In this document: positions 15,301 to 63,885 of the stretch, piece after piece
How the letters are laid out: each line of letters begins with the position of its first letter
Position numbering within the stretch: the first letter of the stretch is position 1
NCBI GenBank assembly: GCA_046563655.1
Contig: CM102286.1
Span: forward strand, 9,176,001-9,240,000
Source of the DNA: Yuukianura sp. NJ FZ-2021
Lineage: Eukaryota
Direction: 5' to 3'
Length of the DNA stretch: 64,000 nucleotides
Made by a program: the position numbers and the translations under genes
The notes under the pieces: generated by a model
Seen by the model: the letters and a program-made list of their open reading frames with translations, nothing else
Database searches by the model: none
What the model was told of the DNA's origin: nothing

Positions 15301-18300
15301 GGTCTTTGTTGGAGTCGGATCGGGTTTGGTGGTTCCCTGACCGCTGTTGGTTCAGGTCAAGAATTGATTCTGGAGAATATTTTATATCAAGAGGCTGGAT
15401 CCTACCGTTGCGTTGCACAGAATCGATTGGGACTGGAGGAACGAAGAGCTCAGACCCGTGATGTCCAAGTAGTCGTGACAGGTGACATGCCCCTTTGTAC
15501 CCACCTTCTTCTGATATCCACTTAAGTCCACGTCACATTCCACTTACGCAACTTCCATTTCAATCCACAACTTATTTTGACAACTTGAATCTGAATCTCG
15601 TTAGACCACTGCCAGGTTCCTGAATTATGCATCTTCAACGTGATCAAAACCCGGAAATTCCTATATTCCACAAAAAAAATTAGTTTGGGTTTAAACTTTT
15701 TTTAAAAAGTTGTTTATGCAAAGAGGTTTCAAAAAACTTCAAAAACCAGAAATTATCAGAAAGGCACAGTTTATGGTCAAATGCCCAATTTTTGAATCAT
15801 AAGCCCAACTTTTTTTGTGTCTTTTTCTCAGTTCACGCCAGTCTTTGTTCTCATACTGCTCCTTTTTTTTCGTTTGTATAGACAGAGTAAGTTTGAAATC
15901 ATGGACATTCAGCTTTCATCTACTGAGCTGATCCATTTAAGTTGTAGTGGAACATGCCAAATATAGGAGTGCCCGCCCTCGGAGTTCCGTTCCGAGAAGG
16001 TTTTTGGCACTTTCCAGGGGGATGTCAATTAAATTTAATGGATTTCCCTTTAATCATGTTAACTGGATTTTACGTTTCTCAGTTAAGGTCGTAGCCTCCC
16101 GAGGAGTCGAGAAGTGAAAGTCGCTTTTCACTTTTCTTTTCACACATTCACATCATTCCCTCGCGTGTCAAAGTTCAACTAAGGAACAGAAAGGGAAGTC
16201 GCTAGAACCTTTCAACTTGAAGCGTAATAAGACTTTTTAGCAAATAGGATTGAGATTGAGCTCTTCTTTATAACCTCCCAACGAAACGGGCCTGTAACGC
16301 TTTCTAAACGCACAAGATAAGGCGGGAACGAGGGAAGTTTGAAGTGAGTTGGAGCTCCTCTCTTGCTCCTTTGTCAAAAATCATTTTGAAGGCCTTCCAC
16401 AGTGACTGAGGGAGAAAGTTAGTGTTAAGAGGCCATAAAGATAGAGGAACAGAAATGGGCTACTAACACCGTAGCAGGTCATAACCGACAATCCAAAAAC
16501 CGACAATCCAATAATCGACAATCAATAATCGACAATTTCAAAAATCGACAATCCCTTAAGCGACAATCCTAAAATCGACAATTTCAAAAATCGACAATTT
16601 CAAAAATCTACAATTCTAAAATCGACAATTCTAAAATCGACAATGTCAAAAATCGACAATCCTAAAACCGACAATTCCAATATTGTTAGAAAACAGAAAG
16701 AAATCTAACGGAAACATTTTACTATCGGCTGCGGTATGTTGTAGGTTGTATTCTCTAAGTCTGGCTAGAGTGACACAATTAGCAGTGCTGATGAAGTGTA
16801 TCGCCTTAGCATGCGGTACCGCGCCGAAGGCGCGGCGATAGGTTTGGTAAAGCAGACAGTAGTGATTACGTCGGTAGGTTTTATTGTCTAGAAATAAGTC
16901 TAGGTTAGGTGGGCTAGGAAATTCTCAAAATTTCAAAAAATCATAACCTTGTTGTCCAGCGAGACTTCACAAATCTGATTACATATTCGTGTTCAGCACC
17001 GCGATAGTGAAATTTTCCGTTAGATTTCTTTTTATTTTCTAGCGAGTTTGGAATTGTCTGTTTTAGGATTGTCGATTTTTGACATTGTCGATTTTAGAAT
17101 TGTCGATTTTAGAATTGTAGATTTTTGAAATTGTCGATTTTTGAAATTGTCGATTTTAGGATTGTCGCTTAAGGGATTGTCGATTTTTGAAATTGTCGAT
17201 TATTGATTGTCGATTATTGGATTGTCGATTTTTGGATTGTCGGTTATGACCTGGAACCACTAACACTATACGGCCTAAAGCTCCCATAGGTCTCGCAAGA
17301 GCGCAGAAAGTAAAAGTAATTTTACGAAGAAAGTTGATTATTACAAAGGAGCAAGATAGACCTATGTAGTTGTAGTTAATTTTCATTAGAGCCGTACACG
17401 ACGCCTCGAGGTGTCCCTACGCCTTTACTGCCAAACTTTGTTCTTGACCGAAATGTTGTTCGTTTCGAGGTCAAACTTACATGTCTAACGAACTGTCTTG
17501 CTTACATCCGGACACTTTTCTTCAGAACCTAACTTAACATGTCGAAAACAGGCTCCTATTCCAAGTCCAAATGCATGTCTCCTGGGAAAATAGAAAAGGA
17601 ATTCATCCTTTTGAAATGACAGAAGGAGGTTGCTGGGGAGCTTATTTTTGACTTTGAAGAGGGAACGTCTATTTTAAGGGCATTAAAATTCTACTCAACA
17701 AAGTCATTAGCACTTGGGAAAATAAACGATGGGGGAAGCATTTGTCATAAACTTTCCAACCGAGTTCATTTGTAGAGTTGTGAGCCTGATCCTATTATGC
17801 CTCTGACATAAAACTGTCGGCGTTAATTTATGATTTCCAGGTCGCCCTGTTGTCTACCCTACGAATCGTACCATAATGGGCTACACTGGACAGCCCTTGT
17901 CACTTTCCGTAGAAATGTGTGCCAATCCACCACCGGACAAGTCCTACTGGGTCTTTGGGAATACGGCACTCAAACCTGGAGGGAGGCATAGAAACAAATA
18001 TGCCGCCAAGAAACTGACGCTAACGGTAAGTGAAAGTTCAGAAGCCAAAAGTCAAAAACTTAAAGCCTCAGATCAATCATCCATTTGAAGGTTCTGTCAA
18101 TATACCATAGGAAAAGTCTGTCAGATTTTTATCAAAGTTTGAAAAATTTGAGACAAAAAGCTGCTGTTACGCTTAAAAGCAAAACGCAATGAGCTATTTT
18201 GCTTAATTTAATTTTGGTGGAAAGGATAATGTCAACTACGTTCTAATTTCAGATTCAAAACTTCTAAGGAGAAACCCCAAAATGTGATTTTTGTAGTTGA

Positions 18301-27744: not shown

Positions 27745-30700
27745 TATTGAAGTGCAAAATATTTACATGCGTAAAATTCCAGGAGCATTTGCTCACTGGT
27801 AACCAAAGAAGAGCGTTACGAGGCCATTTTCTTAATCAAGCGAACGGGTAAGGCGGAAGTTTCATTTCTGATCAGAATAATTAACAAAGACAAATGTTTA
27901 CCGGGACGGTCCGTTTTTCATACTTCGATATGAGTGCAATACTGAACTGCGAAATATTTACGTGCGAAAAGTTCCAGGAGCATTTGTTCACTGGAAATGA
28001 AAAAGAGCGTTACGAGGCCATTTTTGTTATCAAGCGAAAGAGTAACGCGGATGATTCATTTCTGATCAGAATAATTAACAAAGACAAATGTACACCGGGA
28101 CGGTCCCGTTTTTCATACTTCGACATGAGTGCAATATTGAAGTGCGAAATATTTACGTGCGAAAAGTTCCAGGAGCATTTGCTCACTGGAAATGAAAAAG
28201 AGCGTTACGAGGCCATTTTTGTTATCAAGCGAAAGAGTAACGCGGATGAGTCATTTCTGATCAGAATAATTAACAAAGACAAATGTTCACCGGGACGGTC
28301 CCGTTTTTCATACTTCGACATGAGTGCAATATTGAAGTGCAAAATATTTACGTGCGTAAAATTCCAGGAGCATTTGCTCACTGGTAACCAAAGAAGAGCG
28401 TTACGAGGCCATTTTTGTTATCAAGCGAACGGGTAACGCGGATGATTCGTTTCTGATCAGAATAATTAACAAAGACAAATGTTCACCGGGACGGTCCCGT
28501 TTTTCATACTTCGACATGAGTGCAATATTGAAGTGCAAAATATTTACGTGCGTAAAATTCCAGGAGCATTTGCTCACTGGTAACCAAAGAAGAGCGTTAC
28601 GAGGCCATTTTCTTAATCAAGCGAACGGGTAAGGCGGAAGTTTCATTTCTGATCAGAATAATTAACAAAGACAAATGTTTACCGGGACGGTCCGTTTTTC
28701 ATACTTCGACATGAGTGCAATACTGAAGTGCGAAATATTTACGTGCGAAAAGTTCCAGGAGCATTTGTTCACTGGAAATGAAAAAGAGCGTTACGAGGCC
28801 ATTTTTGTTATCAAGCGAAAGAGTAACGCGGATGATTCATTTCTGATCAGAATAATTAACAAAGACAAATGTACACCGGGACGGTCCCGTTTTTCATACT
28901 TCGACATGAGTGCAATATTGAAGTGCGAAATATTTACGTGCGAAAAGTTCCAGGAGCATTTGCTCACTGGAAATGGAAAAGAGCGTTACGAGGCCATTTT
29001 TGTTATCAAGCGAAAGAGTAACGCGGATGATTCATTTCTGATCAGAATAATTAACAAAGACAAATGTACACCGGGACGGTCCCGTTTTTCATACTTCGAC
29101 ATGAGTGCAATATTGAAGTGCAAAATATTTACGTGCGTAAAATTCCAGGAGCATTTGCTCACTGGTAACCAAAGAAGAGCGTTACGAGGCCATTTTTGTT
29201 ATCAAGCGAAAGAGTAACGCGGATGAGTCATTTCTGATCAGAATAATTAACAAAGACAAATGTTCACCGGGACGGTCCCGTTTTTCATACTTCGACATGA
29301 GTGCAATATTGAAGTGCGAAATATTTGCGTGCGAAAAGTTCCAGGAGCATTTGCTCACTGGAAATGAAAAAGAGTATTACGAGGCCATTTTTGTTATCAA
29401 GCGAAAGAGTAACGCGGATGATTTATTTCTGATCAGAATAATTAACAAAGACAAATGTACACCGGGACGGTCCCGTTTTTCATACTTCGACATGAGTGCA
29501 ATATTGAAGTGCGAAATATTTACGTGCGAAAAGTTCCAGGAGCATTTGCTCACTGGAAATGAAAAAGAGCGTTACGAGGCCATTTTTGTTATCAAGCGAA
29601 CGGGTAACGCGGATGAGTCATTTCTGATCAGAATAATTAACAAAGACAAATGTTTACCGGGACGGTCCCGTTTTTCATACTTCGACATGAGTGCAATACT
29701 GAAGTGCGAAATATTTACGTGCGAAAAGTTCCAGGAGCATTTGCTCACTGGTAACCAAAGAAGAGCATTACGAGGCCATTTTTGTTATCAAGCGAACGGG
29801 TAACGCGGATGATTCGTTTCTGATCAGAATAATTGACAAAGACAAATGTACACCGGGACGGTCCCGTTTTTCAAACTTCGACATGAGTGCAACATTGAAG
29901 TGCCACATATTTACGTGCGAAAAGTTCCAGGAACATTTGCTCACTGGAAATGAAAAAGAGTGTTACGAGGCCATTTTTGTTATCAAGCGAAAGAGTAACG
30001 CGGATGATTCGTTTCTGATCAGAATAAGTGACGAAGACAAATGTACACCGGGACGGTCACGTTTTTCATACTTCGACATGAGTGCAATATTGAAGTGCAA
30101 AATATTTACATGCGTAAAATTCCAGGAGCATTTGCTCACTGGTAACCAAAGAAGAGCGTTACGAGGCCATTTTTCTTATCAAGCGAACGGGTAACGCGGA
30201 TGATTCACTTCTGATCAGAATAATTAACAAAGACAAATGTTTACCGGGACGGTCCGTATTTCATACTTCGACATGTGTGCAATACTGAAGTGCGAAATAT
30301 TTACGTGCGAAAAGTTCCAGGAGCATTTGCTCACTGGAAATGAAAAAGAGTGTTACGAGGCCATTTTTGTTATCAAGCGAACGGGTAACGCAAATGATTC
30401 ATTTCTGATCAGAATAATTAACAAAGACAAATGTTTACCGGGACGGTCCGTATTTCATACTTCGACATGTGTGCAATACTGAAGTGCGAAATATTTACGT
30501 GCGAAAAGTTCCAGGAGCATTTGCTCACTGGAAATGAAAAAGAGTGTTACGAGGCCATTTTTGTTATCAAGCGAACGGGTAACGCGGATGATTCATTTCT
30601 GATCAGAATAATTAACAAAGACAAATGTACACCGGGACGGTCCCGTTTTTCATACTTCGACATGAGTGCAATATTGAAGTGCGAAATATTTACGTGCGAA

Positions 30701-33408
30701 AAGTTCCAGAAGCATTTGCTCACTGGAAATGAAAAAGAGTGTTACGAAGCCATTTTTGTTATCAAGCGAACGGGTAACGCGGATGATTCATTTCTGATCA
30801 GAATAATTAACAAAGACAAATGCACAACGGGAAGGTCCCGTTTTTCATACTTCGACATGAGTGCAATATTGAAGTGCGAAATATTTACGTGCGAAAAGTT
30901 CCAGGAGCATTTGCTCACTGGAAATGAAAAAGAGCGTTACGAGGCCATTTTTGTTATCAAGCGAAAGAGTAACGCGGATGAGTCATTTCTGATCAGAATA
31001 ATCAACAAAGACAAATGTTCACCGGGACGGTCCCGTTTTTCATACTTCGACATGAGTGCAATATTGAAGTGCAAAATATTTACATGCGTAAAATTCCAGG
31101 AGCATTTGCTCACTGATAACCAAAGAAGAGCGATACGAGGCCATTTTTGTTATCAAGCGAACGGGTAACGCGGATGATTCGATTCTGATCAGAATAACTG
31201 ACAAAGACAAATGTACACCGGGACGGTCCCGTTTTTCATACTTCGACATGAGTGCAATATTGAAGTGCGAAATATTTACGTGCGAAAAGTTCCAGGAGCA
31301 TTTACTCACTGGAAATGAAAAAGAGTGTTACGAGGCCATTTTGGTTATCAAGCGAACGGGTAACGCGGATGATTCGTTTCTGATCAGAATAATTGACAAA
31401 GACAAATGTACACCGGGACGGTCCCGTTTTTCATACTTCGACATGAGTGCAATATTGAAGTGCCAAATATTTACGTGCGAAAAGTTCCAGGAGCATTTGC
31501 TCACAGGAAATGAAAAAGAGCGTTACGAGGCCATTTTTGTTATCAAGCGAACGGGTAACGCGGATGATTCGTTTCTGATCAGAATAATTGACAAAGACAA
31601 ATGTACACCGGGACGGTCCCGTTTTTCATACTTCGACATGAGTGCAATATTGAAGTGCCAAATATTTACGTGCGAAAAGTTCCAGGAGCATTTGCTCACA
31701 GGAAATGAAAAAGAGCGTTACGAGGCCATTTTTGTTATCAAGCGAACGGGTAACGCGGATGAGTCATTTCTGATCAGAATAATTAACAAAGGCAAATGTT
31801 TACCGGGACGGTCCCGTTTTTCATACTTCGACATGAGTGCAATACTGAAGTGCGAAATATTTACGTGCGAAAAGTTCCAGGAGCATTTGCTCACTGGAAA
31901 TGAAAAAGAGCGTTACGAGGCCATTTTTGTTATCAAGCGAAAGAGTAACGCGGATGAGTCATTTCTGATCAGAATAATTAACAAAGACAAATGTTCACTG
32001 GGACGGTCCCGTTTTTCATACTTCGACATGAGTGCAATATTGAAGTGCAAAATATTTACATGCGTAAAATTCCAGGAGCATTTGCTCACTGATAACCAAA
32101 GAAGAGCGTTACGAGGCCATTTTTGTTATCAAGCGAAAGAGTAACGCGGATGAGTCATTTCTGATCAGAATAATTAACAAAGACAAATGTTCACCGGGAC
32201 GGTCCCGTTTTTCATACTTCGACATGAGTGCAATATTGAAGTGCAAAATATTTACATGCGTAAAATTCCAGGAGCATTTGCTCACTGATAACCAAAGAAG
32301 AGCGTTACGAGGCCATTTTTGTTATCAAGCAAAAGAGTAACGCGGATGAGTCATTTCTGATCAGAATAATTAACAAAGACAAATGTTCACCGGGACGGTC
32401 CCGTTTTTCATACTTCGACATGAGTGCAATATTGAAGTGCAAAATATTTACATGCGTAAAATTCCAGGAGCATTTGCTCACTGATAACCAAAGAAGAGCG
32501 TTACGAGGCCATTTTTGTTATCAAGCGAAAGAGTAACGCGGATGAGTCATTTCTGATCAGAATAATTAACAAAGACAAATGTTCACCGGGACGGTCCCGT
32601 TTTTCATACTTCGACATGAGTGCAATATTGAAGTGCAAAATATTTACATGCGTAAAATTCCAGGAGCATTTGCTCACTGATAACCAAAGAAGAGCGTTAC
32701 GAGGCCATTTTTGTTATCAAGCGAACGGGTAACGCGGATGATTCGTTTCTGATCAGAATAACTGACAAAGACAAATGTACACCGGGACGGTCCCGTTTTT
32801 CATACTTCGACATGAGTGCAATATTGAAGTGCGAAATATTTACGTGCGAAAAGTTCCAGGAGCATTTACTCACTGGAAATGAAAAAGAGTGTTACGAGGC
32901 CATTTTGGTTATCAAGCGAACGGGTAACGCGGATGATTCGTTTCTGATCAGAATAATTGACAAAGACAAATGTACACCGGGACGGTCCCGTTTTTCATAC
33001 TTCGACATGAGTGCAATATTGAAGTGCCAAATATTTACGTGCGAAAAGTTCCAGGAGCATTTGCTCACAGGAAATGAAAAAGAGCGTTACGAGGCCATTT
33101 TTGTTATCAAGCGAACGGGTAACGCGGATGATTCATTTCTGATCAGAATAATTAACAAAGACAAATGTACACCGGGACGGTGCCGTTTTTCATACTTCGA
33201 CATGAGTGCAATATTGAAGTGCGAAATATTTACGTGCGAAAAGTTCCAGGAGCATTTGCTCACTGGAAATGAAAAAGAGCGTTACGAGGCCATTTTTGTT
33301 ATCAAGCGAAAGAGTAACGCGGATGAGTCATTTCTGATCAGAATAATTAACAAAGGCAAATGTTCACCGGGACGGTCCCGTTTTTCATACTTCGACATGA
33401 GTGCAATA
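27745..33408. repeat. Tandem satellite array, 29 monomers of 194-196 bp
   Basis: The motif ATG(A/T)GTGCAA recurs 29 times, from 27930 to 33397, at 194-196-bp spacing with high identity. Two main variants: ...ggaaatgaaaaagag (195 bp) and ...g(g/a)taaccaaagaagag (196 bp). Confidence 0.98.
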
Positions 33409-39976: not shown

Positions 39977-43115
<3,139 letters not shown>

Positions 43116-50547: not shown

Positions 50548-51240
50548 AAATTTAATTACTAACCAAAGGTAAGGAGAAAACCCGGGGAAGTAATCAGTAT
50601 AATGAACTTCAAAAAACGTAACGTAAACACTTGAGACGTAATAAGTATTGCGAAATTTAAAAAACCTAACACCGCGCCTTCCGCGCGGGAAACTATAAAC
50701 ACAAGCTTGTTAGATAACTACACTTGTTGACTGAGAGTAGAACTTGCAATTGAACGAACGCAAATAAATCTGGTTTTAATTGGAGCTGGAGGCGTTTTTT
50801 GGTTAGGCGCTTTTGGATGGAGGCTCTTTTGGGGTGAAGGCGCTTTTTAGATGGAGGCGCTTATTTTTTAGACTCTTATTGAGATTGAGAGGTGCTTATT
50901 GGAGAGGAGCATTTTGGTTAGGCACATATGGATTGCTACGTTAGTTTTTGAAGGGTCATTTCAATAAGGACACACGAAGGGTACCCTGCTGGGTTTTTGG
51001 TGGAAGTTTATTTAACACTGTTGCATGATTGATAAACGCCAGAACGTGCCAAAAGACGTTTTTTTTAAAAGTTGAAACGAGTTCAAACCCTATTGCCTGA
51101 TACCGAAATGTTTTTTTTTTCATTTTCAGAGAGTAATTTTTTTTCTCTTCAAGTTGACTTCTTTTGCAGATAATTTTCCGTTTATTTGGAAATTTTCACT
51201 TAATTATATGTTTTTATATGTGAATTCGAAGTTGGCAGCA

Positions 51241-51732
51241 ATGGAGGGGGTTCGTGACATGTCTATTCCTTATACTGAAAACGAAATTCAGAGAGTTTTG
51301 GCAAAATTACGGACTTTCAGAACTTATGACCCCGTGACGGACTCCATCGGAACAGACGACACTGTCAACTCTGGTCTAGCTCTGGGAATTGGAAACTCGG
51401 ATGAGCAAAATCGAGCTTACGCAAGCTACTTTGACAGGAATCACGGGGGGCGCTGTAATCTGACTGACTACGAACGACTTATGCGTTCACTCCATTCAGT
51501 TGCCCTTCATGCTGGATGGTACGCCGACATGTGCGACCTCAATAAAGATGGCGCGATCAGTAGAAATGAATTTGAGCAAATATACGAACTTATGTCTGTT
51601 CAATGGCCAGTGATTGCAGGAAAAAATTACGAAGAATTCGCTCAAGAAGCAGACACAAATCGCGACGGAATTGTCCAAATTTCCGAAATGAAAGCCTGGA
51701 TCGAGAAAACGGCAGCTGAAGGAAAGCGTTAA
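51241..51732 (+). CDS. Small EF-hand calcium-binding (calmodulin-like) protein, 163 aa, single coding exon
   Basis: ATG at 51241 to TAA at 51732. Canonical EF loops DLNKDGAISRNE and DTNRDGIVQISE, and a degenerate loop DRNHGGRCNLTD. Possible 5'UTR splice acceptor (ttttcattttcag) ending at 51129. Confidence 0.85.
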   Translation: MEGVRDMSIPYTENEIQRVLAKLRTFRTYDPVTDSIGTDDTVNSGLALGIGNSDEQNRAYASYFDRNHGGRCNLTDYERLMRSLHSVALHAGWYADMCDLNKDGAISRNEFEQIYELMSVQWPVIAGKNYEEFAQEADTNRDGIVQISEMKAWIEKTAAEGKR

Positions 51733-51768
51733 CATATTAACATCTCAGAAAATATATTGTAGTAAGAT

Positions 51769-51948
51769 TAGTTTTCATTTTTCGGATTATCACCAGTTGT
51801 GGAAAAATGATTTTATTGAGAAAAAAACCCAAGCTTTCGGACAATGTACTCTATCCTTCTTCAGGGATAAAACTTATGACAAAATTTTAAAGGAAAATCT
51901 ATAAAATATAACTTGAGTGAAAATTCAAAAAGTATTTGTTGACGAAAG
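51769..51948 (-). mobile_element. 180-bp Penelope-like-element/retrozyme-type insertion
   Basis: Bounded by the 16-bp direct repeat TATATTGTAGTAAGAT (51753-51768 and 51949-51964). On the minus strand it contains a hammerhead core followed by AATAAA (plus-strand tttatt, 51812-51817). Confidence 0.65.
51827..51868 (-). ncRNA. Minimal type I hammerhead ribozyme motif
   Basis: Minus-strand RNA: AUCC CUGAAGA A GGAUA gaguacau UGUCC GAAA GC UU GGGU. This gives stem I (AUCC/GGGU), core CUGANGA with an extra A, a 5-bp stem II, GAAA, a minimal palindromic stem III (AAGCUU) and a UH cleavage site. Confidence 0.7.
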
Positions 51949-52402
51949 TATATTGTAGTAAGATATTCTTTGGTTACTTTGCTTTTTGCAGTGACAGTTT
52001 GACAATAACATCAAAGTGCGTAGCTGTGTCTTACATTGCAATCGTCACTGAAAAAGTTCGGTTTTAGTTGATATCATGAACACAATAAATTCGACATATC
52101 GCCACCTTTGGTCGAAGTAAACTTGGGCCCCCGACTCAACCCACCCACCCTTTCAAATTTTTGCGCCGCTGTAACTGGACCCCACCCACTGTACCCGTCG
52201 AATGGATACATCTGTACCTTCCGACACTGCAAGCAATGAGGCTATTCAACGCAAAATTAACCAAAAATTATGTTGAGTCCGAAAACGAGAAAATTATTTC
52301 ACTAAAGCGAGACAGCTGAGATGCCCCCATTTTCCGGTTGACCTTTAACACGGAATTAGTGGCAGGTTATGGCAACATTTGAATTAGTGAGAGGTTACGG
52401 CT

Positions 52403-52694
52403 ACATTACAATTGGCAACATTGCAATTGACAACATTGCAATTGGCAACATTGCAATTGGCAACATTGCAATTGGCAACATTGCAATTGGTAACACTGCA
52501 ATTGGTAACATTACAATTGGCAACATTGCAATTGGCAACATTGCAATTGGCAACATTGCAATTTCAACATTGCAATTGACAACATTGCAATTGGCAACAT
52601 TGAAATTGGCAACATTGCAATTTCAACATTGCAATTGACAACATTGCAATTGGCAACATTGAAATTGATAACATTGAAATTGGCAACATTGCAA
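52403..52694. repeat. 15-bp minisatellite (ACATTGCAATTGGCA) x~19
   Basis: Tandem copies with minor variants. The unit contains overlapping palindromes (ATTGCAAT, CAATTG). Confidence 0.95.
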
Positions 52695-53089
52695 TGTTGT
52701 CAGTAACTGTCGTTATTTAAAAAAAAATTTTGGACGTTACTCTCTGGAAGAAAACAAAAAAAATATTTCAGTGATTTCACTTCCGCGAATCAATTTAAGT
52801 GTAGGCTCGATAATTAGGCAATTGCCAGCCCCCTGAAATGGCGCCCATAGCAACCAACGCAATTTTTGTTTGTGACGTCACCCGCTGAAAAAATACCGTA
52901 ATCGTGAAATAGGACCCCGCTGGCTTCTATGTAAACAAGATGTGTCATACGGGTTTCTATAGGACACGATCATTAATGGGCAAAAATCCGGTATTTTTCA
53001 GCGAGTGCCGTCATTTTTTTCCACATGGCAACCAAACAAACTTTCCATTCGCACTACCTAGTAGTATTCTATTTACCTTGGGTAATTGC

Positions 53090-53544
53090 TTGTGCTTCAA
53101 GTTCGAACTTCCGAAATCGAACCTGGCTGTTTTACTAGGTTCGAAGTTTGGACCTCAACCAAAAGAGTTCGAACTTACACGTCAATATTGGCAAGTATTT
53201 AACAATGTATGGATTTCAACAAACACGAAGGCACATTGCCACAAAAAGTAGTTTTAGTTTGCTTTAAACCTATTGCTTTAAGTTAGTTTTTGAAAAAGAA
53301 TTCGGTTAGATTATACCCATATGTGCGTATGTTAAAAACTTGGAAAAATTTTGAGAAAGTTTTTAACATGCGCACATATGGGTGTAATCCAACCAAGAAT
53401 TCAAATACAGAGGGAAATGCACATTGGCTGTGAATTGCTAAATTTATTACCTTCACCATTTTTTTCACCGTCCATTTGCATTTTGCATGTAAAAATAAGA
53501 TTCGAAAGTTCGAACTTGGGTTCGAAGTTCGAACTTTTCATTTC
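53090..53544. mobile_element. Possible degenerate MITE with (GTTCGAAC)-rich subterminal repeats
   Basis: Clusters of gttcgaac/ttcgaa near 53100-53176 and 53500-53535. The right end ...aacctaagcactg resembles a CAGTG-type TIR end. The left end is degenerate and no TSD was found. Confidence 0.35.
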
Positions 53545-62606: not shown

Positions 62607-63885
62607 ATGGTTTCAATTGAAAATGGATCGTATCGTCTAACAAGTATTACACAATGCCCACCCGGAAAATTAAAATTAGTTTTTGATTTAGGGATTGTTG
62701 ATCATCCCGTTTTTGCAAAAGCTTCTCAACTTTACGGAGAAGTTCCACTTTTTCAACGAAAAGAGTAAGTTCTAAGATGAAAATAAATATTTAAAAACCT
62801 TATTCCAGGGTTAACCTTTTTTAACATTAAGTTGTTATGTAATCTTCAGAGAGATTACATTGTCAAACTACTTCGAAATGACACAGGAAGAACAAACTAA
62901 AATTCTAGATGATGCTATCAAGCGTCTCCGCTACATTCTTGATAACTTGGACGAAGAAGAACTGAACAAATACATACAGGCTAACATCCTGGCTGCTTGC
63001 TCGTGTTTTCCAATTATCGACGTTCGTACTATCCGATTTGAACTTGCTCTATTATGCATCATTGCTGGTAGTATGGGTGATGATTTGGAAGACGATTTCA
63101 AGTTTTTGTTGGAGGATGTTGGCGAGACCAATCGATTGCTCATTGACAAAGTAGATTTGGATTGGAAAGCATTCAAAGCAAGCCAATATACTCTAGATAA
63201 CCGTGTCAAGGGCTTCACTGGTGTAATTCGTGCGAACGAAAGTGAAAAAAATCAGCGCATCTTTGCCGAAATTATGGCAAAGATGAAGGAAGAGTTTCCA
63301 GAGGGATATCCAGATGACGTCAAACATTGCATTCCGCAAGCCATAGGTATTCTTCAGTGTCAGACGTTGCGCTACAGGACGGATGACCCAATGCCTCTCT
63401 CAGAAGACATGCAGAAGATTCTTCGCGGCTACGATGCAGGGTTTGGTCCATGCGCAGAATTTGCAATAATATTTCTCAGGCTATCAATCCCAAAGAAGAT
63501 TAGGAAAAGCCTTTTGTTTAACCTTTTGACGACCGCTGTAATGGACTTCGCTGGGCTCCTCAATGATGTACTCGGGGTCTTGAAAGACGTCAAAGAAGAA
63601 GCTTTAGGAGAGAACTACATACTGCGTTGCGTTACACGAGAAGGAACTCCGCTACAACAGGCATTTAATGATGCATTTAAGCGACTTCGAAACTTGATAT
63701 CTGACATCGAAATCCTAATGTACCGTTTGTTGGAAGCCTTTCCGGAAGAAAAGGGCCTGCGTGCATACATTCAAGCGTGTAAGGATGTTTGTGACGGTCA
63801 AACAATAAGTTACGTCGTTGGTGCACAAAGTACCAAGCGCTACGGCGGCACTTTAAAAATTGTGCCAATGGAGACCGTCGGGTGA
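62607..63885 (+). CDS. Microbial-type class I terpene synthase (terpene cyclase), 397 aa, 2 exons
   Basis: Exon 1 62607-62764, an 85-bp intron (GTAAGT...TCTTCAG, phase 2), and exon 2 62850-63885 splice in frame. Motifs in canonical order: DDLEDD (63079-63096, DDxxD), RGYDAG (63424-63441, pyrophosphate-sensor Arg), NDVLGVLKD (63562-63588, NSE/DTE-like) followed by ENYI, and KRY (RY at 63838-63843). ATTAAA poly(A)-type signals at ~63912 and ~63922. Confidence 0.88.

What the first reader, a model, noticed from the sequence alone, without database searches (positions are those of the whole stretch)
51753..51964. Hammerhead-ribozyme-bearing 180-bp insertion with a 16-bp direct repeat, just downstream of the EF-hand stop codon
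Seen: TATATTGTAGTAAGAT is repeated exactly at 51753 and 51949. Between the copies the minus strand reads AUCC-CUGAAGA-A-GGAUA(8 nt)UGUCC-GAAA-GC-UU-GGGU, followed by AAUAAA. Established: minimal type I hammerheads with a palindromic, nearly absent stem III occur in the terminal repeats of Penelope-like retroelements and related short elements, and are thought to cleave mainly as dimers. Inference: this is a recent PLE/retrozyme insertion. It is antisense in the EF-hand 3'UTR and sense in the putative PHLDB intron, so it could affect processing of either RNA.
Basis: partly seen in the sequence, partly recalled or inferred. Interest (0 to 1): 0.7.

Follow-up and report, generated by a model that had tools for sequence, protein, structure and literature searches.

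The report
Hammerhead-bearing short retroposon beside EF-hand gene
A 175-base mobile element carrying a minimal self-cutting "hammerhead" RNA motif of the type found in Penelope-like retroelements has jumped in just after an animal calcium-binding-protein gene; it is a real catch but an ordinary member of an already described kind.

Summary
The 16-mer is exact at 51753 and 51949. It extends to a 21-nt direct repeat (20 of 21 identical) around a 175-bp AT-rich insert, 51769-51943.

The minus strand carries a complete minimal type I hammerhead at 51868-51827. It shows every hallmark published for Penelope-like-element (PLE) hammerheads:
- a 4-bp helix I;
- an unpaired A between A9 and G10.1;
- the G10.1-C11.1 pair;
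- a loop-less palindromic helix III (AGCU).

A descriptor built from those features hits the window once. It hit 1 of 1000 shuffled windows.

Public contigs from two studies show many copies of the insert in different flanks. They also show alleles with one repeat copy and no insert, so this is a true, polymorphic insertion with a target-site duplication.

Rfam finds nothing. It also misses the same motif next to a GIY-YIG endonuclease ORF in a metagenomic PLE, so that negative is uninformative.

No reverse transcriptase or GIY-YIG ORF, tandem copy or partner hammerhead lies in the window. The copy is a solo monomer and is probably catalytically idle. The "PHLDB intron" claim could not be tested.

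Verdict: a new member of a known kind, of low to moderate interest.

The parts
51748..51768 (.). Left copy of the target-site duplication (21 nt; the exact 16-mer is 51753-51768)
   Evidence: Other copies of the element diverge from the window exactly at 51767/51768 (loose ends).
51769..51943 (-). 175-bp inserted element, 28% G+C, sense strand taken as minus. The 5' end is at 51943 and the 3' end at 51769 (A-rich, ...CCGAAAAAUGAAAACUA).
   Evidence: Contigs in 4 runs map only to this stretch and run on into unlike flanks. Joints 51768/51769 -> 51980 skip it. There is no other copy in the window.
51944..51964 (.). Right copy of the target-site duplication (21 nt, 20/21 identical to the left copy; the exact 16-mer is 51949-51964)
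   Evidence: One other copy of the element runs into an unlike flank after 51944 (table 7, X2).
51827..51868 (-). Minimal type I hammerhead motif (42 nt), with predicted cleavage between U17 (51831) and G1.1 (51830)
   Evidence: feature list in PMC4209133
51858..51864 (-). Core box CUGAAGA (C3-A9), followed by the unpaired A at 51857
   Evidence: [quoted passage not shown]
51839..51856 (-). Helix II (GGAUAG 51856-51851 / UUGUCC 51844-51839) with loop AGUACA; G10.1 is 51856 and C11.1 is 51839
   Evidence: Family contigs mostly read C instead of U at 51853 and A instead of G at 51851 on the minus strand. Both letters pair with the opposite strand in either form (table 3).
51831..51838 (-). Core GAA (51838-51836), palindromic loop-less helix III AGCU (51835-51832) and U17 (51831)
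   Evidence: palindromic 15.2-16.2 is a listed PLE-HHR feature
51865..51868 (-). Helix I 5' strand AUCC, pairing with GGGU at 51830-51827
51241..51732 (+). Neighbouring EF-hand ORF (163 aa plus TAA), related to KChIP / neuronal calcium sensor proteins. The insert lies 36 nt after its stop, antisense. The first AATAAA on the + strand after the stop is at 52084.

Best explanation
The insert is a short, non-coding retroposon copy derived from the hammerhead-bearing terminal region (pLTR / 3' end) of a Penelope-like element. It is either a non-autonomous 'monomer' family or a strongly 5'-truncated copy. An RNA read from the minus strand was copied into the chromosome by target-primed reverse transcription supplied in trans by a PLE reverse transcriptase/endonuclease. 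Staggered nicks 21 bp apart gave the direct repeat. The 42-nt motif is a minimal type I hammerhead that has no helix III of its own. Its AGCU can form helix III only with the AGCU of a second copy, so it would cut (after U at 51831) only in multimeric or paired transcripts of the source element. At this locus the copy is solo and antisense to the EF-hand message. It is most likely a catalytically idle, recently fixed-or-segregating insertion whose only local effect is to lengthen the presumed 3'UTR by 196 bp. Shown: the insertion, the duplication, the empty alleles, the multicopy family and the motif anatomy. Inferred: the PLE machinery, the sense strand, dimer-only cleavage and inertness.
For: 1. 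Insertion. The 16-mer is exact and the 21-mer is 20/21 identical on either side of 175 bp. In one search, contigs of X1, X2 and X4 join 51768/51769 to 51980 with 15-18 intervening letters. Those letters are a slightly diverged version of 51965-51979, i.e. one repeat copy followed directly by the right flank. One further X1 contig joins 51777 to 51980.
2. Repeated family. In one search, position 51853 is covered by at least 6 (X1), 13 (X2), 7 (X4) and 10 (X5) contigs. Loose ends at 51767/51768 have discordant flanks (agreement 0.62-0.68). X5 is a different organism label and a different study.
3. Motif. All core letters are present, helix I has 4 bp and helix II has 5-6 bp starting G10.1-C11.1. 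There is one unpaired nucleotide after A9 and a palindromic AGCU with no loop 3. These are the four features that PMC4209133 lists as emerging in PLE hammerheads. The descriptor gives 1 hit in the window and hits in 1 of 1000 shuffles.
4. Variation. The two best-supported differences between this copy and the family inside the motif both lie in helix II and keep pairing (C-G versus U.G, A-U versus G.U).
5. PLE link. A pattern of the core alone retrieved metagenome locus L006. There the same architecture (extra A, GG..CC helix II, GAAAGCUU, 4-bp helix I) lies about 130 nt after a GIY-YIG ORF with two Cys between GIY and YIG, and about 60 nt before the next long ORF. That is the PLE tandem layout.
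6. Position. The cut site is 62 nt from the element's 3' end. PLE hammerheads lie near the 3' end, PLE target-site duplications vary in length, and PLE reverse transcription starts about 100 nt past the hammerhead.
Against: No hammerhead family of Rfam matches, either at gathering score or at E <= 10 on 321 bases. However, the PLE-linked motif of L006 and those of L003 and L004 are missed as well. No reverse transcriptase or GIY-YIG ORF, second hammerhead or tandem unit lies in the 64-kb window. No genome is held, so homology to a PLE of this organism is untested. The strict family pattern found nothing in metagenome contigs. The whole 176-nt RNA (51769-51944) folds no better than shuffles (z 0.18 on either strand), unlike the self-paired retrozyme circles described in PMC7229834. 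In this copy a competing hairpin (UUUUAUCC/GGAUAGAG, -8.7 kcal/mol) beats the hammerhead helices (-7.3). The family evidence comes from contigs at >= 80% likeness. Only the best-supported differences were printed (98 substitutions and 42 indels were not shown), so conservation of the core across copies is not demonstrated. The sides of the empty-site joints are short (31-46 letters).
Confidence: 0.8

Rival explanations
1. The element is a real retroposon (SINE-like or LINE-dependent), but the hammerhead is a chance look-alike with no catalytic history.
For: There is no Rfam hit. Only one copy could be read letter by letter. AT-rich sequence easily yields GAAA and CUGA-type words. The scan covers very many windows, so a 1-in-1000 event per window will occur somewhere. 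The competing hairpin is more stable in this copy.
Against: The motif sits inside an independently defined mobile element. It shows four features that were not needed to call a hammerhead but are typical of PLE hammerheads. Both listed helix II variants keep pairing. The same core occurs in a PLE context in L006. The Rfam negative is uninformative.
Confidence: 0.1
2. It is a unit of a true non-LTR retrozyme: a tandem-repeat family expressed as about 175-nt circular RNA. This is a dispersed monomer offspring of that family.
For: The size falls within the 170-400 nt range and the G+C content is low. Target-site duplications longer than 4 bp are described for metazoan retrozymes. Dispersed monomers, and exon overlaps mostly in 3'UTRs, are reported in the 2026 preprint. 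At least one other copy shares the same 5' boundary at 51944.
Against: There is no tandem copy here and no 'go back' joint among the contigs. The RNA is not unusually self-paired. The hammerhead is the minimal PLE type, not the canonical type with loop-loop contacts that marks invertebrate retrozymes. Other contigs share only 51769-51876 and then differ (loose ends at 51876 in X1 and X5).
Confidence: 0.25
3. It is not an insertion. The 16-mer arose by local duplication or assembly error, or the element is a DNA transposon (MITE).
For: None beyond the bare presence of a direct repeat.
Against: Both empty and filled forms occur in public contigs, and many copies lie in unrelated flanks. There are no terminal inverted repeats. 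A 21-bp duplication is far longer than those of the DNA transposon superfamilies (recalled).
Confidence: 0.02

Closest known systems
Minimal hammerheads (min-HHR) of metazoan Penelope-like elements (Cervera & de la Pena 2014, PMC4209133; whole main text read in parts 1-2)
   Same: [quoted passage not shown] It is mostly dispersed as single motifs attributed to truncated PLEs, and the family is multicopy.
   Different: Helix II here has 5-6 bp against 7-8 in the Schistosoma families. No PLE ORF or second pLTR is in reach. Activity is untested.
Non-LTR retrozymes of animals and their monomer derivatives (Cervera & de la Pena 2020, PMC7229834, passages; Li, Clavereau & Pollet 2026 preprint 10.64898/2026.07.22.740005, abstract and Results part 1)
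   Same: A short, AT-rich, non-coding unit with a type I hammerhead and a long target-site duplication. Monomers are scattered along chromosomes, and the rare exon overlaps are mostly in 3'UTRs. The units are thought to be non-autonomous derivatives of PLE pLTRs.
   Different: Retrozymes are defined by tandem units and abundant circular RNA. Neither is seen here: there is a single unit and no RNA run was listed. The hammerhead is of the minimal type, not the canonical one.
Canonical EN+ PLE in tandem, as in metagenome locus L006 and PAc of Anolis (PMC11167929, passages)
   Same: The hammerhead architecture and flanking core letters are the same (CCCUGAAGA-N-GG...CC-GAAAGCUU-GG). The hammerhead lies a few tens of nt before the unit's 3' end or the start of the next ORF.
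   Different: L006 encodes RT-motif and GIY-YIG pieces, whereas the window element encodes nothing. Similarity outside the motif is weak and lies in AT-rich sequence.
Sm-alpha / Sj-alpha SINE-like hammerhead elements of schistosomes (as described in PMC6765202, passages)
   Same: A short interspersed retroposon that carries a type I hammerhead.
   Different: Those elements have a promoter region ahead of the hammerhead, as described in PMC6765202, and a canonical hammerhead (recalled). No tRNA, 5S or 7SL match was found in or near this insert.

Membership tests
Hammerhead ribozyme, minimal type I variant of PLEs | Catalytic core C3 U4 G5 A6 N7 G8 A9 ... G12 A13 A14, the A15.1-U16.1 pair, and H17 not G | tested here: met
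   CUGAAGA at 51864-51858, GAA at 51838-51836, A at 51835, U at 51832 and U17 at 51831
Hammerhead ribozyme, minimal type I variant of PLEs | Helix I and helix II flank the core in type I order, with a G10.1-C11.1 pair | tested here: met
   Helix I is AUCC/GGGU (4 bp). Helix II is GGAUAG/UUGUCC (6 bp including two G.U pairs). G51856 pairs with C51839. 0 of 1000 shuffles matched as well.
Hammerhead ribozyme, minimal type I variant of PLEs | An unpaired nucleotide between A9 and G10.1 | tested here: met
   A at 51857; the feature is listed in PMC4209133
Hammerhead ribozyme, minimal type I variant of PLEs | Helix III reduced to a palindrome (15.1-15.2-16.2-16.1), which can pair only in a dimer | tested here: met
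   AGCU at 51835-51832 with no loop 3. Dimer formation itself is not shown.
Hammerhead ribozyme, minimal type I variant of PLEs | A consensus family within the genome showing compensatory changes | tested here: inconclusive
   The family is multicopy. The two listed differences in helix II keep pairing through wobble, but no double-sided change was seen and most differences were not printed.
Hammerhead ribozyme, minimal type I variant of PLEs | Self-cleavage at the H17 site | not testable with these tools
   No RNA run was listed. An in vitro assay is needed.
Rfam Hammerhead_1 (RF00163; accession recalled) and the other Rfam hammerhead models | A score at or near the model's threshold | tested here: not met
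   No hammerhead hit at gathering score or at E <= 10. The control PLE-context motif in L006 and those in L003 and L004 are also missed, so these models do not cover this variant.
Autonomous Penelope-like element | An ORF with a reverse transcriptase and a GIY-YIG endonuclease between pLTRs | tested here: not met
   No such Pfam hit on any of 127 window ORFs scanned (6 + 66 + 55). No long ORF adjoins the insert.
PLE-derived non-autonomous element / 5'-truncated PLE copy | A variable-length target-site duplication, a defined 3' end, and a hammerhead near that 3' end | tested here: met
   A 21-bp duplication. Many copies break off at 51768. The cut site is 62 nt from the 3' end.
PLE-derived non-autonomous element / 5'-truncated PLE copy | Sequence homology to the pLTR of a PLE in the same genome | not testable with these tools
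   No genome is held.
Non-LTR retrozyme (strict sense) | Head-to-tail tandem units, each with a hammerhead | tested here: not met
   A single unit and no second hit in the window. No back-joined contig. The genome-wide state is unknown.
Non-LTR retrozyme (strict sense) | Circular RNA of unit length | not testable with these tools
   No RNA holder was listed.
Pol III SINE | A head derived from tRNA, 5S or 7SL | tested here: not met
   No such Rfam match in the window or at E <= 10 in 51700-52020.
MITE / DNA transposon | Terminal inverted repeats and a short fixed-length duplication | tested here: not met
   No inverted repeat at the insert ends. The duplication is 21 bp.

The most novel reading that the evidence does not exclude
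The family may be a discrete, currently active, roughly 175-nt SINE-like parasite of Penelope-like elements that moves as a monomer. Independent insertions would share both ends. The family would share only its roughly 108-nt hammerhead-plus-tail module (51769-51876) with other elements, which would make that module the recognition signal for the PLE reverse transcriptase. The insertion would be segregating in the population inside the 3'UTR of an EF-hand gene. This would give a natural system for asking what the PLE hammerhead is for.
Probability: 0.25. Interest if true: 0.4.

Novelty: new member of a known kind. Interest (0 to 1): 0.25.

Why it matters
It adds one well-documented case to a known phenomenon: a target-site duplication, empty and filled alleles, and full motif anatomy. 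Minimal hammerheads scattered through animal genomes as short PLE-derived copies have been described since 2014, so specialists would not be surprised.

Two points have practical value. First, Rfam's hammerhead models miss this variant, even beside a GIY-YIG endonuclease, so covariance-model screens undercount it. Second, a polymorphic insertion with a defined shared 3' module could help define what the PLE reverse transcriptase recognises.

Tried and rejected
- Earlier notes of this scan: none for this genome or this sequence.
- Strict family pattern in metagenome contigs: 0 hits.
- Relaxed core pattern: 0 hits in viral contigs. It gave 5 loci in prokaryotic MAGs. Of these, only L009 has even 3-bp helices, so I treat all five as chance.
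- Of the 6 metagenome loci, L002 and L005 do not fold as hammerheads at the match. L001 has only 3-bp helices. None is a member of the window's family.
- RNA evidence: no RNA holder was listed. No starts, ends or circular joints could be examined.
- Organism identity: the search for homologous proteins returned nothing at E <= 1e-5 for the EF-hand protein or for the terpene-synthase-like ORF. PDB gave only distant KChIP-type matches for the former and none for the latter. Ig, trypsin and PH domains indicate an animal.
- Alignment of the insert with the L006 pLTR: similarity outside the motif is weak and AT-rich, so it is not used.
- Homodimer folding predicts an extended trans duplex of helix II (-28.6 against 2 x -8.7 kcal/mol). 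Any hairpin can do this, so it is not taken as support.
- Lunse et al. 2017 (PMC5785218) is not held. It is cited only through the review PMC6765202.
- Supplementary figures of PMC4209133, with the descriptor and alignments, were not consulted.

Full report
**The observation**

The 16-mer TATATTGTAGTAAGAT is present exactly twice in the window, at 51753 and 51949. The match extends leftwards to 21 nt with one A/G difference, at 51748-51768 and 51944-51964. The sequence between the copies, 51769-51943, is 175 bp and 28% G+C. It has no other copy in the window (blastn).

Helix II can take a sixth pair (G51851.U51844), which leaves a 6-nt loop. AAUAAA follows at 51817-51812. That word is no rarer than chance in this AT-rich window: 211 AWTAAA against 238 expected.

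The EF-hand ORF (Pfam EF-hand_1, E 1.1e-10; distant KChIP-type matches in PDB) ends with TAA at 51730-51732. The first AATAAA on its strand after the stop is at 52084. The insert therefore probably lies in the 3'UTR, antisense. This is inferred, as there are no RNA data.

**Is the motif more than chance?**

I wrote a descriptor from the features published for minimal hammerheads of Penelope-like elements. It specifies, in order:
- helix I;
- CUGANGA;
- 0-1 extra nucleotide;
- helix II;
- GAA;
- A, then a palindrome of 0-6 nt, then U;
- H17, then the return strand of helix I.

It gives one hit on both strands of the window, at this site. In 1000 dinucleotide-preserving shuffles, 1 shuffle had any hit at helices >= 4 bp, and none had a hit as good as the one observed. 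The descriptor was written after I had seen the motif, and the scan as a whole covers very many windows. This number alone would therefore not settle it.

**Is it a mobile element?**

No genome is held for the window. Contigs of three runs of one sample (X1, X2, X4; organism A) and of a run from another study (X5; organism B) were laid on 51100-52340 at >= 80% likeness. Three results matter.

1. Many contigs match only the insert and then run into unrelated sequence.
   - Position 51853 is covered by at least 6, 13, 7 and 10 contigs in X1, X2, X4 and X5.
   - The loose ends pile up at 51767/51768 with discordant flanks.
   - One X2 contig leaves the window sequence after 51944.
   - The boundaries of the repeated unit thus coincide with the inner edges of the 21-nt repeat.
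2. Contigs in X1, X2 and X4 join 51768/51769 directly to 51980, with 15-18 letters between.
   - Those letters (for example CTTTAGTTATTTAAA) are a slightly diverged version of 51965-51979.
   - These contigs therefore carry one copy of the repeat followed at once by the right flank. They are empty-site alleles.
   - A filled contig that differs from the window at 19 of 449 positions (X4, record 22) and a contig identical to the window over 51774-51910 (X1, record 4) occur in the same sample.
   - The insertion is thus polymorphic among the haplotypes in that sample.
3. Some contigs of both organisms share only 51769-51876 and then continue with a different common sequence (loose ends at 51876 in X1 and X5). 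This suggests that the hammerhead plus the 3' tail is a module shared between elements.

Limits of this evidence:
- These are contigs, so depth is not copy number.
- The joint sides are only 31-46 letters.
- Only the best-supported differences were printed.

**Anatomy against the literature**

Cervera and de la Pena (PMC4209133) describe metazoan PLE hammerheads as type I motifs with these traits:
- a short helix I (4-5 bp) and a poorly defined loop 1;
- a highly conserved G10.1-C11.1 pair;
- palindromic 15.2-16.2 positions, with or without a tiny loop 3.

Helix III therefore exists only in a dimer. The authors add that most such motifs are dispersed singly and are "probably related to truncated PLEs".

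The window motif has each of these traits: A51857, G51856-C51839, AGCU at 51835-51832 and the 4-bp helix I.

Within the motif, the two best-supported differences between the window copy and the family are 51853 and 51851. On the minus strand the family mostly has C and A where the window has U and G. Both lie in helix II, and both forms pair with the opposite strand. That is mild support for the helix, not proof. These are single-sided transitions.

**Rfam**

No hammerhead model matches, either at gathering thresholds over the window or at E <= 10 over 321 bases. As a control I ran the same search on four metagenome loci that carry minimal hammerheads, including one in a clear PLE context. None was detected. 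The Rfam negative therefore says nothing about this variant.

**Link to PLEs**

A pattern holding only the core letters and two flanking pairs (CCCTGAAGA, 16-24 N, CCGAAAGCTTGG) found:
- 6 loci in metagenome contigs;
- none in viral contigs;
- 5 loci in prokaryotic MAGs.

Of these 11 loci, L004 and L006 satisfy the full descriptor (extra nucleotide, 5-bp helix II, AGCU, 4-bp helix I). L003 holds a different neat minimal hammerhead with a CAUG palindrome. L001 and L009 have only 3-bp helices.

The minus strand of L006 reads, in order:
- a fragment with an RT-like YVDN motif;
- an ORF with a GIY-YIG domain (Pfam E 1.5e-6) and two cysteines between GIY and YIG, as in PLE endonucleases;
- about 130 nt of AT-rich spacer;
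- the hammerhead;
- about 60 nt of further sequence;
- the ATG of a 319-aa open frame.

That is the tandem PLE layout with the hammerhead in the pLTR. This exact core type is thus PLE-borne elsewhere. L006 is not a relative of the window's element outside the motif.

In the window itself, none of the 127 ORFs scanned shows a reverse transcriptase or GIY-YIG domain.

Two further PLE traits fit. Target-site duplications are of variable length. Reverse transcription begins internally about 100 nt beyond the hammerhead (PAc). Here the cut site is 62 nt from the element's 3' end.

**How it probably works**

The source element is transcribed, and the PLE enzyme copies the 3' module into a staggered break, which duplicates 21 bp. 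The hammerhead can assemble only when two copies pair through AGCU. That happens in tandem or multimeric transcripts.

Published in vitro rates for such motifs are low even as dimers. In PAc, hammerhead mutants did not affect insertion in vitro.

This copy has no partner within the window, that is, none within 12 kb to its right or 51 kb to its left. It is antisense to the EF-hand gene. Its U51853 favours a competing hairpin by 1.4 kcal/mol. I therefore judge it inert.

The whole 176-nt RNA (51769-51944) is not unusually structured (z 0.18). That argues against a viroid-like circular retrozyme.

**The PHLDB intron claim**

PH-domain pieces lie on the minus strand at 40893-41312 and 39980-40165. 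No Pfam domain was found on any of the minus-strand ORFs of 55 aa or more scanned between 41.3 and 64 kb; three frames inside the 15-bp repeat at 52387-52699 were not sent. Whether that gene's introns reach 51.8 kb cannot be told from these data.

**Novelty**

Dispersed minimal hammerheads from PLEs are known from cnidarians to reptiles. Scattered monomers of PLE-derived retrozymes, with exon overlaps mostly in 3'UTRs, are described in a 2026 preprint. This is a new member of a known kind.

Noticed in passing
window 27745-33408: A 195-bp unit is repeated 29 times at 94% identity (score 9654). It is open in one + frame across many units, in ORFs up to 350 aa with the repeated peptide ...ERYEAIFVIKRKSNADDSFLIRIINKDKC.... 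Pfam gives only sub-threshold noise. It is either a satellite or a repetitive protein-coding exon.
   Followed up: partly
window 62815-63885 (+): A 356-aa open frame in an animal-type window matches Pfam Terpene_syn_C_2 (PF19086, E 2.3e-7, above its cut-off). It contains DDxxD-like (GDDLEDD) and NDxxG-type metal-binding-like strings. There were no homologues at E <= 1e-5 in the protein collection and none in PDB. It may be an animal terpene cyclase.
   Followed up: partly
window 52399-52695: A 15-bp tandem repeat (GGCAACATTGCAATT, about 20 copies, 90% matches) lies 430 bp downstream of the insert. Each unit is partly palindromic (TTGCAA).
   Followed up: no
window 16486-16680 and 17043-17245: Two arrays of a 15-bp repeat lie in inverted orientation (CGACAATCCAAAAAT and its complement-like CGATTTTAGAATTGT), about 360 bp apart. 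They may be the arms of a large inverted repeat or a foldback element.
   Followed up: no
L003 (+ strand; the second motif found): This metagenome contig holds a textbook minimal hammerhead with a 5-bp helix I, an unpaired U after A9, a 4-bp helix II and a CAUG palindrome in helix III. It is distinct from the pattern match in the same locus. Rfam also misses it at E <= 10.
   Followed up: partly
L006 1-1749 (minus strand): A metagenome contig carries a tandem Penelope-like element: a fragment with an RT-like YVDN motif, a GIY-YIG ORF, a minimal hammerhead, and the start of the next 319-aa ORF. There appears to be a frame break between the RT fragment and the endonuclease.
   Followed up: partly
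window 53304-53394: A 38-nt inverted repeat, 92% complementary, with a 15-nt spacer could form a strong hairpin. Its nature is unknown.
   Followed up: no
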